A program made the translations under genes and the position numbers. From IMG/VR virus record IMGVR_UViG_2724679073_000002: DNA of 23,679 nt. The stretch is one strand, 5' to 3'. Below, one piece after another: positions 12,565-15,362 of the stretch. The notes under the pieces are model-generated. The model made no database searches. It worked only from the letters and a program-made list of their open reading frames with translations, and had not been told where the DNA came from. The DNA comes from a virus (lineage: Duplodnaviria > Heunggongvirae > Uroviricota > Caudoviricetes). Position 1 is the first letter of the stretch, and every line of letters begins with the position of its first letter.

Positions 12565-12891
12565 TCATAACACCGTCGGACAACGCAAATCGTAAATCAG
12601 CACGGAAACAGAAAACGGCAGCTCCCCCTGAAGCAGTTCTTCCCGCTCCGCAAGATCCGGATTCCGGTACAGCATCCCGGTCAGTCGCATGGCAGCCCCC
12701 TTCATCCGGGTTAATGCCTCGCCCGGGATCAGTTCACCGTCCTCACGGATCACTTTATCCCGGCTGCCCTGAATGTAGGCCAGCAGCACGGCGGTAGCCT
12801 GACGAACCTTGTCCATCAGCATGTCATCATCCGCGTCATGGTCGACACGCAGATGTGCCTTGATCTCTTCCAGTGTCAGTAATGCCGTCAT
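12565..12891 (-). CDS. Head-tail connector (gp6-like) protein, 108 aa
   Basis: ATGA overlap with the portal stop; helical acidic small protein typical of gp6-like connectors; assignment by position and size. Confidence 0.6.
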   Translation of the reverse strand: MTALLTLEEIKAHLRVDHDADDDMLMDKVRQATAVLLAYIQGSRDKVIREDGELIPGEALTRMKGAAMRLTGMLYRNPDLAEREELLQGELPFSVSVLIYDLRCPTVL

Positions 12892-15362
12892 TTTCCGCCT
12901 CCTGCATCCCGCCCACGTTTTGCAGCCAGGGTCCAGGCTGATGAATGAGCTTCTCCGGGTTTATCTTCGGTCATACTGTTGCAGTGCCACAGCGAGCCCC
13001 CCCACGTCACCGTATCGCCGGGGTGGTAGGTTTCACCGGCTCTGAACACACCGCGGTAGAGCATCACCGGCAGGGAAAATGTTTTTTCCGTACGCTGGCC
13101 ACTGCTCTGCCGGACCACCACAGAGAACAACCGCTCACCCGTCATGCTGACGTCAATATCCGCCACCCCGTCAACCAGGCATTCCCATCCCCGCATCCCG
13201 TGCGTTTTTTCATACGCCCGCCAGAGTCCGCCCTGGTGTGTGGCATACGTGCCCCGGGGAAAGGATTTTTGATCGTCAATGGCGGGGAGTATTTCCAGAG
13301 CCGTGGCATCACGCCCGTCCTGCGGAGCCGGCAGGGCACTCACCGCATCCAGAACCGCCTTCTGCAGAACATCCGGATCGTAGTCACGACCATCACGCGG
13401 AACATGAATATGGCTTACCGCCTCCTTCACCATCTGTTCAAGCATCGGACGCACATCATCCGGGGTGAGACTTTTACCGTCTGCCGGCTGCGGAATATTT
13501 GCGACCGCATCATTCACCGCCTTCTGCAGAACATCGGTAGTCAAAACATTTGCGACCGCATCATTCACCGCCTTCTGCAGTACTTCCGGATCGTAGTCAC
13601 GACCATCACGCGGAACAGGGATATGGCTTACAGCCTCCTTCACCATCTGTTCAAGCATCGGACGCACATCATCCGGGGTGAGACTTTTACCGTCCGCCGG
13701 CTGCGGAATATTTGCGACCGCATCATTCACCGCCTGCTGCAGTACATCCGGATCATAATCACGACCATCACGCGGTACCGGAATGGCCCCCACAGCGTCA
13801 TCCACCATCGCCTGCAGAACCGGACGCACCTCATCCACCGTCACATGCTTCTGTAATACCGCCGACAGGGAAGTCAGTTTCTCTTCAAACGCTTGTGCCT
13901 GCGAGGCCATCTTCCCCTCAAATGTGCGCTGTAAATCCGCCAGCACTGTGGAGAATTCTTCTCCCAGTGCACGAATAATGGACAGTTCCCGTTCCGTCAT
14001 TTTCTCAGTATCCCCCCTGAACATCGCTTTCACCGCATCATGCTCTGTTTCACTGATTGCCTTATTACCGTCAGATGCGCCGTCAGGCAGCTGTGATGAA
14101 ACTGTTTTCCCGGCAGACGCGAACGGATCCTCACGGGCATCACGACGGGACAGCGCCTCCAGACTGTAGTTCTGCTGCTGAAGATACAGTGCATCACCGC
14201 CGGCCAGGGGCGGCAGGTTCTCCCGTTTACGGGCCTCATTGGGCGTGAGAAGCGTATTTTTCACCGCATCCCCCAGCGTTTTCATGCGCCGCTCACTGTC
14301 CATTCTCAGCAGCGTGGTGACATCAAATTCTGTACTCTCGTTTTCCCCCGTTTCCAGCGCCTCATCCAGTAACAGTTCAATGGACTCAATCAGCGTCTGC
14401 AGGCACTGGGAATAATACTGCTGCTCCAGCGCCTCCACGTTGTCACTGGAAGGCGGTTGTCCCACGCCAATCTTGTAGGCCGGGACACGGAACACCGAAC
14501 AGACAATTTCAGCGGTCATCTTCAGTTGTTCCACCGTCTGCGCATCCACAGGTGAAAACGTCGTGGGGTTGTATTTTGCCCCGTTGCTCAGAATGGCCGT
14601 TTTCCCCGCATTTTCGCCTGTATACCCGCTGTCCCAGTTGCTCTTCAGTTTTTTCGCATTTTCTTCCGTAATACTGCCGGGGATCTCAATCACCCCGGAC
14701 GGCCTGCCGCCATTTCTGAAAAAAGACGTCGAATTTTCCTGAATATGATGCCCCTGCGTGGCCGCCAGCCCGGCGGCATACACCGGCGGCAATCCTATAA
14801 GCGGATGAAAAAAACAGTTAAACCGGTCGTGGATCACTTCCCGGGCAGGCACCGTCACCGCCTCCGTGATCCCGCAGTTCCGGTCCGGCGTGATGCGGTA
14901 GAACACCTCGCCGTCATCCGCCACCAGAGGTTCAACCCGGCTCCAGTCCAGAATACGCAGTTCTTTGATCTGCCCCCGGGCATTACGGATTTTCAGCACC
15001 ACCGTATTGCCATGACGCAGTTTGGCGTTCAGCCACAGTTCAAAAAACTGGATGCGGTTCTGCTGGGCGTTGGGACGACGACAGAGGCGGGCAATATCCC
15101 CCCGGCGCGTTTCCCTGCGTATCCCATGCGCATCCGTCTGCATAAGACGCAGCCGCATTTTGGCGATATCCTGGGATATCAGCGAAATACATGCAAACAC
15201 CGCATGAAAGGAGAGGACGGCTTCAGGATCGGCTTTCACGCCCTGCTGCCAGGCGCCGGAAAAGGGCTCAGCCACCGCCTGAAACAGGCTGGTCCAGCCC
15301 GCCTCTCTTACGTCACGTCCTGATTTCTGGTTTTTTCGGGTTCGCCGTAAAAGGTTCCACAT
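12888..15362 (-). CDS. Portal protein (HK97-family-like N-terminal ~415 aa) with ~410-aa C-terminal extension, 824 aa
   Basis: N-terminal part carries portal-like motifs (AVFACISLISQDIAKMRL, GNTVVLKIRN, FFRNGGRPSGVIEIPG, GKTAILSNGAKY, FRVPAYKIG, TPNEARKRENLPPLAGGD); the C-terminal part has a coiled coil, tandem ~54-aa repeats and a Trp/Cys-containing terminal domain. Confidence 0.75.
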   Translation of the reverse strand: MWNLLRRTRKNQKSGRDVREAGWTSLFQAVAEPFSGAWQQGVKADPEAVLSFHAVFACISLISQDIAKMRLRLMQTDAHGIRRETRRGDIARLCRRPNAQQNRIQFFELWLNAKLRHGNTVVLKIRNARGQIKELRILDWSRVEPLVADDGEVFYRITPDRNCGITEAVTVPAREVIHDRFNCFFHPLIGLPPVYAAGLAATQGHHIQENSTSFFRNGGRPSGVIEIPGSITEENAKKLKSNWDSGYTGENAGKTAILSNGAKYNPTTFSPVDAQTVEQLKMTAEIVCSVFRVPAYKIGVGQPPSSDNVEALEQQYYSQCLQTLIESIELLLDEALETGENESTEFDVTTLLRMDSERRMKTLGDAVKNTLLTPNEARKRENLPPLAGGDALYLQQQNYSLEALSRRDAREDPFASAGKTVSSQLPDGASDGNKAISETEHDAVKAMFRGDTEKMTERELSIIRALGEEFSTVLADLQRTFEGKMASQAQAFEEKLTSLSAVLQKHVTVDEVRPVLQAMVDDAVGAIPVPRDGRDYDPDVLQQAVNDAVANIPQPADGKSLTPDDVRPMLEQMVKEAVSHIPVPRDGRDYDPEVLQKAVNDAVANVLTTDVLQKAVNDAVANIPQPADGKSLTPDDVRPMLEQMVKEAVSHIHVPRDGRDYDPDVLQKAVLDAVSALPAPQDGRDATALEILPAIDDQKSFPRGTYATHQGGLWRAYEKTHGMRGWECLVDGVADIDVSMTGERLFSVVVRQSSGQRTEKTFSLPVMLYRGVFRAGETYHPGDTVTWGGSLWHCNSMTEDKPGEAHSSAWTLAAKRGRDAGGGK
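13345..13800 (-). repeat. In-frame tandem repeat, 162-bp unit, about 2.5-3 copies plus a 51-bp partial duplication, inside the portal extension
   Basis: CCGGATCGTAGTCACGACCATCACGCGG recurs at 13373 and 13586, with a diverged copy at 13748; blocks are near-identical; GCGACCGCATCATTCACCGCC recurs at 13502, 13552 and 13724. Confidence 0.85.

What the first reader, a model, noticed from the sequence alone, without database searches (positions are those of the whole stretch)
12888..14120. Portal protein with ~410-aa C-terminal extension ending in a carbohydrate-binding-like domain
HK97-family portals are about 400 aa; here the portal-like region is followed in frame by a coiled coil, tandem 54-aa repeats and a terminal ~120-aa domain. 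The terminal segment TYHPGDTVTWGGSLWHCNSMTEDKPGEAHSSAW resembles the Y-x2-G-D-x-V-x-Y-x-G-x2-Y-x-C...W pattern of CBM5/12-type (chitin-binding type 3) modules, which are usually found on fibres, not portals. A binding module on the end of a portal is unexpected, since portal C-termini normally face the capsid interior. It may be a cleaved-off or ejected domain, or a mis-joined separate gene.
Basis: partly seen in the sequence, partly recalled or inferred. Interest (0 to 1): 0.65.

Follow-up and report, generated by a model that had tools for sequence, protein, structure and literature searches.

The report
Portal gene fused to neighbouring fibre gene
The oversized 824-residue "portal protein" of this E. 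coli prophage is two normally separate genes, an ordinary HK97-type portal and a conserved, uncharacterised fibre-like protein with a chitin-binding-type tip, joined in frame by one extra G in a run of Gs.

Summary

It is not an ancestral long portal. In 53 of 53 loci from other species, 60 of 77 portal-seeded viral loci, and phages BP-4795, JLK-2012, FSL SP-016, RHph_X2_26 and Sakai Sp10, the portal (~450 aa) and the extension ("X", 170-580 aa) are adjacent genes in different frames, usually overlapping as ATGA. Here a G5 to G6 change (14012-14017), 20 nt before the old portal stop, merges them.

The fusion is not an assembly error. The identical junction occurs in 747 complete E. coli records and in phages 2851 and YYZ-2008.

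X has no curated family and is widely mislabelled "portal protein". I read it as a portal-vertex or neck fibre with a glycan-binding tip. Whether it sits outside or inside the capsid is unresolved.

Moderate interest.

The parts
12888..15362 (-). Fused portal-X ORF, 824 aa plus stop
   Evidence: ORF list and translation. PHROG 2271 'portal protein', an 859-position profile, covers all of it.
14103..15362 (-). HK97-family portal proper (aa 1-420)
   Evidence: PF04860 aa 54-382, E 6e-81. TIGR01537 aa 45-388, 349 bits. Aligns to solved portals 9lbn (aa 43-420) and HK97 8cez (aa 45-400).
14013..14102 (-). Portal C-terminal tail (aa 421-450): flexible linker plus start of a terminal amphipathic helix
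   Evidence: The tail ends KAM[LF]RGILRK* in two-gene alleles and KAMLRGLLTK* in other Enterobacterales. It is a subfamily-wide feature.
14012..14017 (-). G6 run: the extra G that fuses the two genes. It is also a Shine-Dalgarno-like AGGGGGG 11 nt before the X start.
   Evidence: G6 here and in L001, L003, L009 and L011, against G5 in Stx2a_1447, Stx1_499, 86-24 and Sakai Sp10. Anti-SD duplex -10.2 kcal/mol.
14001..14012 (-). Junction codons D451-T-E-K454, created by the frame change
   Evidence: The fused allele reads KAMFRGDTEKMTEREL where two-gene alleles read KAMFRGILRK* followed by MTEREL.
13997..14000 (-). ATGA: start codon of X (M455, 13998-14000) overlapping the now out-of-frame ancestral portal stop TGA (13997-13999)
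   Evidence: The same 4-nt overlap is present in most relatives.
12891..14000 (-). X-homologous part (aa 455-824, 370 aa), a separate gene in relatives
   Evidence: Stand-alone homologues begin M[NTD]ERELS.... X is adjacent to the portal in 53/53 species loci and 60/77 portal-seeded loci.
13851..13994 (-). N-terminal long helix of X (aa 457-504), the presumed anchor
   Evidence: AF2 helix at residues 4-51 of the model, pLDDT ~70. The sequence type is specific to each lineage.
13305..13841 (-). Stalk: three 54-aa units (helix plus P-x-P-x-D-G-[KR]-D linker), unit 2 with a 17-aa duplication; acidic (pI 4.4)
   Evidence: Copy number varies among alleles in 54-aa steps. Relatives replace it with collagen or PELPD repeats.
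12891..13307 (-). C-terminal beta domain (aa 686-824) ending in the CBM5/12-like module. The Pfam hit covers aa 774-796 (12975-13043).
12565..12891 (-). gp6-like head-tail connector gene, overlapping the end of the fused ORF by 4 nt
   Evidence: PF05135. A connector homologue starts at the end of the X ORF in the relatives where phmmer detects one.
15574..17511 (-). 645-aa S78 prohead protease fused to the major capsid protein, upstream of the portal
   Evidence: PF04586 plus PF05065. The same order TerL, protease-MCP, portal, X is seen in 48 of 53 species loci.

Best explanation
The 824-aa ORF is a natural in-frame fusion of two neighbouring genes.

Gene 1 is an ordinary HK97-family portal of ~454 aa. 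It ends in a flexible linker and a short amphipathic helix. Gene 2, called X here, is a conserved and uncharacterised protein built like a fibre. It has an N-terminal ~50-residue helix specific to each lineage, a stalk of variable length, and a conserved C-terminal beta domain with a CBM5/12-type module at its end. The stalk is 54-aa helix/P-x-P-x-DG-x-D repeats here, and collagen triplets or PELPD repeats in relatives.

Ancestrally the portal stop and the X start overlap as ATGA. In this lineage a run of five Gs, 20 nt upstream of that stop, gained a sixth G. That shifts the portal frame into the X frame, so ...KAMFRGILRK* plus MTEREL... became ...KAMFRGDTEKMTEREL...

These steps are shown (about 0.95 for the fusion, about 0.85 for the CBM5/12-like fold).

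The following is inferred:
- X is a trimeric fibre of the portal vertex or neck whose tip binds a conserved glycan of the beta-1,4 GlcNAc/Glc polymer kind (about 0.65 for 'fibre').
- In two-gene phages I think it most likely projects outside, like the neck fibres of T4 and cyanophage A-1(L) (about 0.4-0.45).
- In the fused allele the portal-linked copies would then be passengers at the portal's inner (crown) end.
- Free X could still be made by internal initiation at M455, using the G-run as its Shine-Dalgarno sequence.
For: The fusion and its direction:
- The junction differs by one G (G6 versus G5) between this window and two-gene alleles on at least three flanking haplotypes.
- The G5 frame gives a portal end, KAM[LF]RGILRK*, that is homologous to KAMLRGLLTK* in Pantoea, Atlantibacter, Kosakonia, Enterobacter and Kluyvera. 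The G6 frame does not.
- 53 of 53 loci from other species have the portal and X in different frames. They span Enterobacterales, Pseudomonas, Caballeronia/Paraburkholderia, Rhizobiales and others. Overlaps are 1, 4, 8 or 14 nt.
- In a portal-seeded, unbiased sample, 60 of 77 loci have X directly after the portal and only 1 is fused.
- Phage and prophage records with two genes: BP-4795, JLK-2012, FSL SP-016, RHph_X2_26 and Sakai Sp10. Sp10 was scored portal '+' and was transferred to K-12 (PMC2669165).

Not an artefact: the exact 70-nt fused junction is in 747 of 1063 matching complete E. coli records, in phages 2851, YYZ-2008 and Stx2a_WGPS6, and in 21 IMG/VR loci.

The CBM-like tip.

Fibre-like build:
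- Helix, repeats, then a beta domain.
- Collagen repeats replace the stalk in P0120, P0128 and L193.
- X lengths follow 245+54n aa.
- Some relatives keep the anchor and stalk but carry a different C-terminal domain.
- BFVD neighbours are collagen-like and tail proteins.

Precedent: A-1(L) neck fibres are trimers anchored by their N-terminus to the neck, with a distal carbohydrate-binding module (PMC10966104).

Internal initiation: AGGGGGG lies 11 nt before the ATG and pairs with the anti-SD at -10.2 kcal/mol. That is as strong as for neighbouring structural genes and stronger than the portal's own site (-5.8).
Against: - No direct evidence places X anywhere in the virion.
- A portal C-terminus normally faces the capsid interior (established knowledge of the HK97, P22 and T4 portals). 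The widespread fused allele therefore fits an internal, portal-bound X at least as naturally.
- The C-terminal domain is conserved at 31-68% identity from Rhizobiales to Klebsiella. That is like a core structural protein and unlike typical receptor-binding tips.
- The window protein itself stays below Pfam's CBM_5_12 threshold, and only the first half of the profile is matched (positions 3-25 of 44).
- Trimerisation is inferred only from collagen repeats in relatives.
- Internal initiation is inferred from sequence alone.
- dN/dS within the fused lineage has too little divergence to show that the X part is still under selection.
Confidence: 0.6

Rival explanations
1. X is an internal minor head protein bound to the portal, a positional analogue of SPP1 gp7 / Mu gpF (MuF). 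Its N-terminal helix docks on the portal's C-terminal tail helix inside the capsid. The C-terminal module is cargo: it acts after ejection, for example by binding peptidoglycan in the periplasm, or it organises the DNA end. The fusion merely makes a normal non-covalent contact covalent.
For: - X occupies exactly the slot immediately downstream of the portal gene where MuF genes sit. MuF proteins bind the portal and often carry variable C-terminal domains (PMC5576092).
- Fusion to the inward-facing portal C-terminus is common in E. coli.
- Fusions recur in unrelated lineages: P0146, 1237 aa, and L234.
- Every portal of this subfamily has an extra linker plus terminal helix that HK97 gp3 and the 9lbn portal lack.
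- The portal tail type and the X N-terminus type change together between lineages.
- The C-terminal domain is conserved across proteobacterial classes. That suits a universal ligand such as peptidoglycan.
Against: - No Pfam MuF hit (PF04233, PF06152) in the window protein or in 34 relatives.
- Collagen-like or long repetitive stalks ending in a carbohydrate-binding knob are the build of external fibres.
- A covalently tethered copy cannot be ejected.
- Portals tolerate C-terminal passengers (T4 gp20-GFP fusions; my own recollection, not checked here), so a viable fusion says little about X's native place.
- The tail/N-terminus co-variation can be explained by tight linkage of overlapping genes.
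- The P0146 and L234 fusions could be frameshift errors in metagenome assemblies.
Confidence: 0.3
2. The G-run is a switch. Replication slippage (G5/G6) or ribosomal slippage at AGG-GGG-AUA lets the phage make both a plain portal and some portal-X, as lambda makes gpG and gpGT. This would set how many portal subunits carry the fibre.
For: - G5 and G6 both occur on more than one flanking haplotype.
- The site lies 5 codons before the portal stop, the same geometry as lambda G/GT (own knowledge).
- In the two-gene allele the frame reads three rare codons, AGG GGG AUA. A -1 slip of tRNA-Gly on the G-run would give exactly the fused sequence.
- An SD-like element is part of the site.
Against: - No canonical X XXY YYZ heptamer in frame.
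- The run is absent in Salmonella (AGA GGA ATT) and Erwinia.
- In other relatives X is in the other frame relative to the portal (+1 rather than -1; overlaps of 1, 8 or 14 nt). No conserved frameshift mechanism can therefore exist.
- Sp10-type phages carry tRNA-Ile(CAT) and tRNA-Arg(TCT), which should relieve rare-codon stalling.
- Some G5 records with flanks identical to the fused allele come from assemblies with many frameshifts. In 86-24 the capsid, connector and tail genes are also 'frameshifted'.
Confidence: 0.1
3. The long ORF is the intact ancestral portal, and the two-ORF versions are frameshifted pseudogenes. This is how GenBank and PGAP annotate them.
For: - PGAP calls the G5 alleles 'frameshifted'. 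AP012530, AP012538 and AP012540 label them 'portal protein (pseudogene)'.
- Asadulghani et al. scored several Sakai prophage portals as defective.
Against: - Every relative outside the E. coli G6 haplotype is two-gene, apart from isolated fusions such as L234.
- The portal C-terminus is conserved in the G5 frame.
- Two-gene alleles are far more diverse than the nearly clonal fused haplotype. The portal part differs at 0-1 sites among fused copies, against dS 0.25-0.28 to two-gene alleles.
- Sp10 is two-gene and transfer-competent.
Confidence: 0.03
4. The fused allele is a defect carried by decaying prophages. The portal-X product is non-functional or harmful, and it persists only by hitch-hiking or by complementation from co-resident prophages.
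For: - E. coli genomes hold a median of 4 and up to 20 matching places for this gene.
- Complementation among Sakai prophages is documented.
- The fused haplotype is young, so lack of decay is uninformative.
Against: - The same junction is found in 747 records from human, bovine, wastewater and river isolates. That implies recent horizontal spread.
- It is present in Stx phages described as such, 2851 and YYZ-2008.
- All 21 fused IMG/VR loci keep the whole X part open.
Confidence: 0.12

Closest known systems
HK97 gp3-type portal proteins (PF04860 / TIGR01537; PDB 8cez, 9lbn)
   Same: Residues 1-420 are a full-length member. Both profiles match end to end, and the sequence aligns directly to solved portals.
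   Different: Solved relatives end within 7-15 residues of the aligned region. This subfamily adds a linker plus terminal helix, and in this allele a further 370 residues from another gene.
CBM5/12 chitin/cellulose-binding modules (Serratia ChiB, Streptomyces ChiC ChBD, Erwinia EGZ CBD)
   Different: Below Pfam's threshold in this protein, and only the first half of the profile is matched. The module is embedded in a larger 139-aa domain. An upstream stretch (GTYATHQGGLWRA...GWE) looks by eye like a second such motif, but nothing tested this. It is not attached to an enzyme. Ligand unknown.
MuF / SPP1 gp7 family of portal-binding minor head proteins
   Same: The gene lies immediately downstream of the portal gene. 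The family is modular with variable C-terminal domains (PMC5576092).
   Different: No sequence match to the MuF Pfam families. X has a fibrous stalk and a carbohydrate-binding-type tip rather than a globular MuF domain or a toxin.
Neck fibres / whiskers (T4 fibritin; cyanophage A-1(L) gp82-gp81-gp80)
   Same: A fibre with an N-terminal anchor, an extended repetitive stalk and a distal carbohydrate-binding module. X is encoded beside the portal and connector genes.
   Different: No sequence or fold match to fibritin or gp82. Attachment site, oligomeric state and exposure of X are unknown. No known neck fibre is found fused to the portal's C-terminus.
P22 gp1 portal with C-terminal barrel
   Same: A portal whose C-terminus carries a long helical extension that would lie inside the head (own knowledge).
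   Different: The P22 barrel is an integral part of one gene. Here the extension is a second gene joined by a 1-nt insertion, and it ends in a beta domain.

Membership tests
HK97-family portal (PF04860, TIGR01537) | Full-length profile match above the curated cut-off | tested here: met
   PF04860 272.6 bits against a cut-off of 39.1, profile positions 2-321 of 321. TIGR01537 349.5 bits against 112.
HK97-family portal (PF04860, TIGR01537) | Typical length (~400-430 aa) and position in a head module with terminase, protease/capsid and connector genes | tested here: met
   Two-gene alleles give a 454-aa portal. The neighbours are TerS, TerL, S78-MCP and a gp6-like connector. The 824-aa length comes from the fusion.
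CBM5/12 carbohydrate-binding module (PF02839) | Pfam match at or above the gathering score (26.2 bits) | tested here: not met
   The window protein scores 19.2 bits (whole) and 24.6 bits (domain alone), matching profile positions 3-25 of 44. Relatives: 31 of 34 at E<=0.01, best E 3e-7; P0128 scores 28.6 bits.
CBM5/12 carbohydrate-binding module (PF02839) | Small three-stranded beta fold superposable on solved CBM5/12 domains | tested here: met
CBM5/12 carbohydrate-binding module (PF02839) | Surface aromatic residues that bind chitin or cellulose; demonstrated glycan binding | not testable with these tools
   Trp residues in TVTWGGSLWHC and SSAWTL are invariant or nearly invariant in the family. 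Their exposure and any binding were not tested.
MuF / SPP1 gp7 portal-associated minor head proteins | Gene immediately downstream of the portal gene | tested here: met
   Adjacent in 53/53 species loci and 60/77 portal-seeded loci. The criterion is the one used in PMC5576092.
MuF / SPP1 gp7 portal-associated minor head proteins | MuF domain (PF04233 / PF06152) detectable by profile | tested here: not met
   No such hit at E<=1 in the window protein or at E<=0.01 in 34 relatives. No NCBIfam family for X.
MuF / SPP1 gp7 portal-associated minor head proteins | Physical binding to the portal; presence inside procapsids | not testable with these tools
   Only indirect evidence: natural fusions to the portal C-terminus.
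Programmed -1 frameshift pair (lambda gpG/gpGT type) | Conserved slippery heptamer near the end of the upstream ORF, with the downstream ORF always in the same relative frame | tested here: not met
   No X XXY YYZ heptamer in frame. The G-run is absent in Salmonella and Erwinia. X is in either of the other two frames relative to the portal among relatives, and overlaps vary (1, 4, 8, 14 nt).
Collagen-like phage fibre (PF01391) | G-x-y triplet repeats in the stalk | tested here: not met
   None in the window protein. Present in the relatives P0120, P0128, L193 and L206 in place of the 54-aa repeats.
Neck fibre / whisker (T4 fibritin, A-1(L) gp82-80) | Trimeric fibre attached by its N-terminus to the portal-adaptor neck, exposed outside | not testable with these tools
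   The architecture is compatible (precedent). There is no fold or sequence match to known neck-fibre anchors.

The most novel reading that the evidence does not exclude
X is a component of the portal vertex in a large class of HK97-like siphophage heads of Proteobacteria that has not been recognised before. It docks on the portal's C-terminal tail inside the capsid. The G-run lets the phage toggle, by replication or ribosomal slippage, between a free and a portal-tethered form. Its conserved CBM5/12-type tip engages a GlcNAc/Glc polymer, such as peptidoglycan, during genome delivery. That would be a portal-anchored internal 'pilot fibre', which is not known for long-tailed phages.
Probability: 0.1. 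Interest if true: 0.8.

Novelty: new variant of a known kind. Interest (0 to 1): 0.45.

Why it matters
1. Annotation. Hundreds of E. coli and Stx-phage records treat the long ORF as the intact portal and the two-gene form as a pseudogene. Stand-alone X proteins in many genera have inherited the names 'phage portal protein' or 'gp6-like head-tail connector'. The comparative data reverse that reading. This affects judgements about which Stx prophages are 'defective'.

2. A new family. X accompanies about 80% of portals of this subfamily across alpha-, beta- and gammaproteobacterial prophages. 5508 representative clusters match its C-terminal domain. It has no curated family and no known role, and it looks like a glycan-binding fibre placed at the portal/neck genes.

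3. A natural experiment. Phages that are otherwise near-identical differ only in whether X is free or tethered to the portal's inner end. Comparing them would show directly where X sits and what it does.

Tried and rejected
- PDB sequence searches with the whole protein, the C-terminal 170 aa and the helix/stalk region found only portals, a weak hit to Anabaena CIS protein All3316, and chance GAPDH hits.
- NCBIfam has nothing for X.
- Literature searches on portal plus C-terminal extension or carbohydrate binding, chitin-binding or head fibre, phage 2851, YYZ-2008, 9LBN, and neck or collagen-like fibres found no description of this protein. The SfI, Ogura 2015 and 9LBN-citing papers say nothing about it. 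The phage 2851 paper (Strauch 2008) is not held.
- dN/dS in the X part: fused copies are too similar to each other. Values against YYZ-2008 and the two-gene alleles are 0.3-0.6 on 6-28 substitutions, which is not informative. The 2851 comparison was misaligned at its 3' end and was discarded.
- I tested whether the portal tail helix is present only when X is present. It is present in all portals of the subfamily, including loci without the CBM-like domain, so it does not discriminate.
- The exact TTG+G5 and TTG+G6 junctions do not occur in complete RefSeq E. coli genomes. The common two-gene haplotypes differ at other nearby positions, so I could not get a clean genome-wide count of G5 alleles. 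Only lower bounds are given.
- phi330 matches the fused junction, but its annotation is broken into three ORFs, probably by other indels. I did not use it.
- The full-length X model is poor in the stalk (pLDDT ~50). I used it only for secondary structure.
- No tRNA genes in the window.

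
Full report
**What is in the window.** The window is the late region of a lambdoid E. coli prophage, read on the minus strand. The genes run in this order:
- an HNH endonuclease, TerS and TerL;
- a 645-aa S78 protease fused to the major capsid protein;
- a 73-aa ORF;
- the 824-aa ORF in question (12888-15362);
- a gp6-like connector, a head-closure protein, a gp10-like protein and gp17;
- a major tail protein with an Ig-like domain, the chaperones, the tape measure protein, and the tail-tip proteins up to a lambda J-like protein.

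The ORF is near-identical to 'phage portal protein' genes in 1246 of 5426 complete E. coli genomes and in long-tailed Stx phages.

**Checking the observation.** Residues 54-382 match Pfam Phage_portal (E 6e-81), and residues 45-388 match TIGR01537 portal_HK97. Solved portals (9lbn, HK97 8cez, RcGTA) align up to residue ~400-420 and then stop within 7-15 residues. Beyond that the sequence contains:
- a Pro/Gly/Ser-rich linker and a short helix (aa 421-450);
- a 48-residue predicted helix (aa 457-504);
- three 54-aa units, each a 13-17-residue helix plus a 12-residue P-x-P-x-D-G-[KR]-D linker. The second unit carries a 17-aa internal duplication;
- a 139-aa all-beta domain.

**The terminal domain.** Pfam CBM_5_12 is the only family that hits the extension. 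It scores 19.2 bits on the whole protein and 24.6 bits on the isolated domain, against a gathering score of 26.2. Of 34 aligned relatives, 31 hit it at E<=0.01, and some exceed the threshold. An AlphaFold2 model of the last 170 residues (pLDDT 82.8) finds solved chitin- and cellulose-binding domains as its best matches:
- Foldseek: probability ~1, although E-values are only 0.01-0.1.

Next in the lists come phage tail fibres and a contractile-injection-system baseplate protein. In the viral structure library the neighbours are collagen-repeat proteins, 'ChiC_BD' proteins and tail proteins of uncultured phages. The CBM5/12 resemblance is real at the fold level. Formal Pfam membership is not met for this sequence.

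**The key result: two genes, not one.**

*First signs.* Stx2a_1447 and many other Stx phage records annotate two 'portal' ORFs. Alignment shows they differ from the window by one base, at nt 1344-1351 of the gene.

*Homologues of the C-terminal domain.* An exhaustive profile search with the domain found 5508 representative proteins (351 at E<1e-30). Nearly all are 200-500 aa, with the domain at their C-terminus. That is too short to contain a portal. Stand-alone homologues from Salmonella, E. albertii and others start M[DN]ERELS..., exactly where M455 lies here.

*Gene context.* Four relatives show the order TerS, TerL, S78-MCP, portal (447-479 aa), X (246-255 aa), connector. The portal stop and the X start overlap in three of them; in the Erwinia locus the called X start lies 82 nt downstream, although an earlier in-frame ATG overlaps the portal stop by 8 nt.

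*Wider samples.*
- A scan of one genome per species gave 56 loci. All 53 that include the portal have the portal and X in different reading frames. They come from Enterobacterales, Pseudomonas, Marinobacter, Caballeronia/Paraburkholderia, Variovorax, Rhizobiales, Acetobacteraceae, Sphingomonadales and Caulobacteraceae.
- To avoid the bias of searching with X, I seeded a second scan with the portal. Of 77 loci with enough downstream DNA, 60 have X directly after the portal, 6 have an X-like domain further downstream, 1 is fused and 10 lack the domain.
- Of those 10, several keep the same N-terminal helix and a collagen-like stalk but carry a different or truncated C-terminal part.

*Phage records.* BP-4795, JLK-2012, Salmonella FSL SP-016 and Rhizobium RHph_X2_26 are all two-gene. 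So is prophage Sp10 of O157 Sakai (ECs_1974, 454 aa; ECs_1975, 407 aa). Asadulghani et al. scored Sp10 as portal-positive and transferred it to K-12 (PMC2669165).

**How the fusion arose.** Two-gene E. coli alleles read ...GCG ATG TT[CG] AGG GGG ATA CTG AGA AAA TGA. This gives a portal ending KAM[FL]RGILRK*, and the X start ATG overlaps the stop (ATGA). The window reads ...TTC AGG GGG GAT ACT GAG AAA ATG ACG, with six Gs instead of five. That gives KAMFRGDTEK-MTEREL....

The G5 frame is the ancestral one. Its product is homologous to the portal ends of other Enterobacterales (KAMLRGLLTK*, KAILRGFLTK*, KAMVRGMIAK*), all followed by an ATGA overlap and MNERELS.... Fused copies are almost clonal in the portal part (0-1 differences). 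They differ from two-gene alleles at dS 0.25-0.28. The fusion is therefore young.

**Not an artefact.** The exact 70-nt fused junction is present in 747 of 1063 matching complete E. coli records from many laboratories and sources. It is also in phages 2851 (859 aa), YYZ-2008 (861 aa) and Stx2a_WGPS6, and in 21 IMG/VR loci. G5 alleles occur on at least three flanking haplotypes and G6 on two. So the run has changed length more than once, or the alleles have recombined. Some G5 records whose flanks are identical to the fused allele come from assemblies with many frameshifts and may be errors.

**What X looks like.**
- N-terminus: a ~50-residue helix whose sequence type is specific to each lineage. 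Examples are MNERELSLIKALGEEF in Enterobacterales, LNLRELEAQAKALAP in Pseudomonas, MRDVTGIPDELL in Caballeronia, and MFDGKAFG, MIDAKAFG or MDLQEAFD in Rhizobiales.
- Stalk: very variable in kind and length. There are 54-aa repeats with 0 to 6 copies in E. coli, giving X lengths of 245+54n aa. Other relatives have about 25 PELPD-type repeats or true collagen triplets. It is acidic, pI 4.4.
- C-terminal domain: conserved at 31-68% identity across proteobacterial classes.

This is the build of a fibre with an anchor, a spacer and a binding head. Collagen repeats in relatives imply trimers.

**Where X sits: the unresolved step.** Two readings survive.

*External.* The architecture, the swapping of C-terminal domains, the copy-number polymorphism of the stalk and the position beside the connector genes all recall neck fibres. 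A-1(L) neck fibres are N-terminally anchored trimers with a distal carbohydrate-binding module (PMC10966104). T4 fibritin is the classic case (own knowledge).

*Internal.* The gene slot is that of MuF/gp7, which binds the portal (PMC5576092). The portal C-terminus faces the capsid interior. The fusion is widespread, and fusions recur in P0146 and L234. This portal subfamily also has an extra tail helix.

I give the external reading a slight edge, for three reasons:
- Portals tolerate C-terminal passengers (T4 gp20-GFP; my recollection, not checked here).
- Twelve 40-kDa passengers are a negligible fraction of the head volume (my own rough estimate).
- The G-run is a good Shine-Dalgarno sequence 11 nt upstream of M455, at -10.2 kcal/mol against -5.8 for the portal's own site. 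Free X may therefore still be made from the fused allele.

The strong conservation of the C-terminal domain argues for a ligand common to all these hosts. Candidates are cellulose, PNAG or peptidoglycan-type polymers, or another virion component. Nothing here decides between them.

**Rivals rejected or downgraded.**
- *Ancestral long portal with frameshifted relatives.* This contradicts the outgroups (confidence 0.03).
- *Assembly artefact.* Excluded by the 747 identical junctions.
- *A conserved programmed frameshift.* Excluded because X lies in different frames relative to the portal in different lineages, and the run is not conserved. A lineage-specific slippage or phase-variation role for the G-run remains possible (0.1).
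- *The fused allele as a tolerated defect.* Cannot be excluded (0.12).

**Comparison with what is known.** The portal part is an ordinary member of the HK97 portal family. The tip works like, and folds like, a CBM5/12 module but does not formally pass Pfam's test. X is not a MuF protein by sequence, although it occupies the same gene slot. No curated family (Pfam, NCBIfam) covers X. The PHROG families that do cover it are either unannotated or carry 'portal protein' by contagion from the E. coli fusion. I found no paper that describes it, within the limits of the library.

**Verdict.** The 'strange portal' is explained by a 1-nt homopolymer insertion. The remaining interest lies in X itself: a widespread, unnamed fibre-like gene next to the portal, with natural free and tethered variants.

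Noticed in passing
window 14013-14177; loci L155-L234: Every portal of this subfamily continues past the conserved QQQNYSLEALAKRDAxxDPF with a 20-35-residue Pro/Ala-rich linker and a 15-20-residue amphipathic helix at the very C-terminus. HK97 gp3 and the 9lbn portal lack this tail. Its partner is unknown; candidates are X, or the scaffold-like part of the protease-MCP fusion.
   Followed up: partly
window 13305-13841; loci L070-L149: Repeat copy number is highly polymorphic. E. coli X proteins are 245, 299, 353, 407, 461 or 569 aa, in steps of one 54-aa unit. The window allele has an extra 17-aa (51-nt) duplication inside unit 2 (aa 606-622, VLTTDVLQKAVNDAVAN). This appears to be the commonest fused form, judging by ORF length (seven IMG/VR loci with the matching 866-aa stop-to-stop ORF).
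   Followed up: partly
window 14012-14017: The G-run that causes the fusion is also a Shine-Dalgarno-like element (AGGGGGG, -10.2 kcal/mol with the anti-SD) 11 nt before the X start codon. It is stronger than the portal's own ribosome-binding site (-5.8).
   Followed up: partly
L154 (Sakai Sp10) 20706-20958; two-gene junction AGG GGG AUA: In two-gene alleles the portal ends with three rare codons in a row (AGG GGG AUA). Sp10 itself encodes tRNA-Ile(CAT) and tRNA-Arg(TCT), which read AUA and AGA/AGG. The window contains no tRNA gene, but its close relative L001 has a tRNA-Arg upstream of the lysis genes.
   Followed up: no
L193 5370-5963, L198 2328-2951, L222 3202-3537, L231 5127-5696: Some relatives keep the N-terminal helix and collagen-like stalk of X but end in an unrelated C-terminal segment (...HDERGRILEFERRE), or are cut down to ~80-110 aa. 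The C-terminal head is therefore exchangeable.
   Followed up: partly
protein database hits P0001-P0120; L151 3274-4695: Annotation contagion: stand-alone X proteins in Klebsiella, Salmonella, Erwinia, Citrobacter and a Rhizobium phage are named 'phage portal protein' or 'phage gp6-like head-tail connector protein'. Two-gene E. coli alleles are labelled 'frameshifted' or 'pseudogene'.
   Followed up: yes
window 15574-17511: Prohead protease (S78) and major capsid protein are one 645-aa ORF placed before the portal gene. The order TerL, protease-MCP, portal differs from HK97 and is conserved in 48 of 53 related loci.
   Followed up: partly
window 15308-15529: A conserved 73-aa ORF (WP_001063099.1 in relatives) lies between the capsid and portal genes and overlaps the portal start by 55 nt. 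It has no family hit. A small ORF occupies the same position in Salmonella, FSL SP-016 and other relatives.
   Followed up: no
window 10638-11354: The major tail protein has a C-terminal immunoglobulin-like domain (Ig_3 / I-set). This is a second probable surface-adhesion module on the same virion.
   Followed up: no
P0146 (1237 aa) and L234 3896-5752: Two further portal-X fusions in unrelated lineages. One has about 25 PELPD-type repeats. The other is short and lacks the usual tail helix and X start. Both come from metagenome-type data, so frameshift errors cannot be excluded.
   Followed up: partly
L007 (strain 86-24) 1-6069: In this RefSeq assembly the capsid, portal, connector and major tail genes of one prophage are all flagged 'frameshifted'. 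This suggests homopolymer errors in the assembly rather than biology, and calls for caution with the 31 G5 records that share the fused allele's flanks.
   Followed up: no
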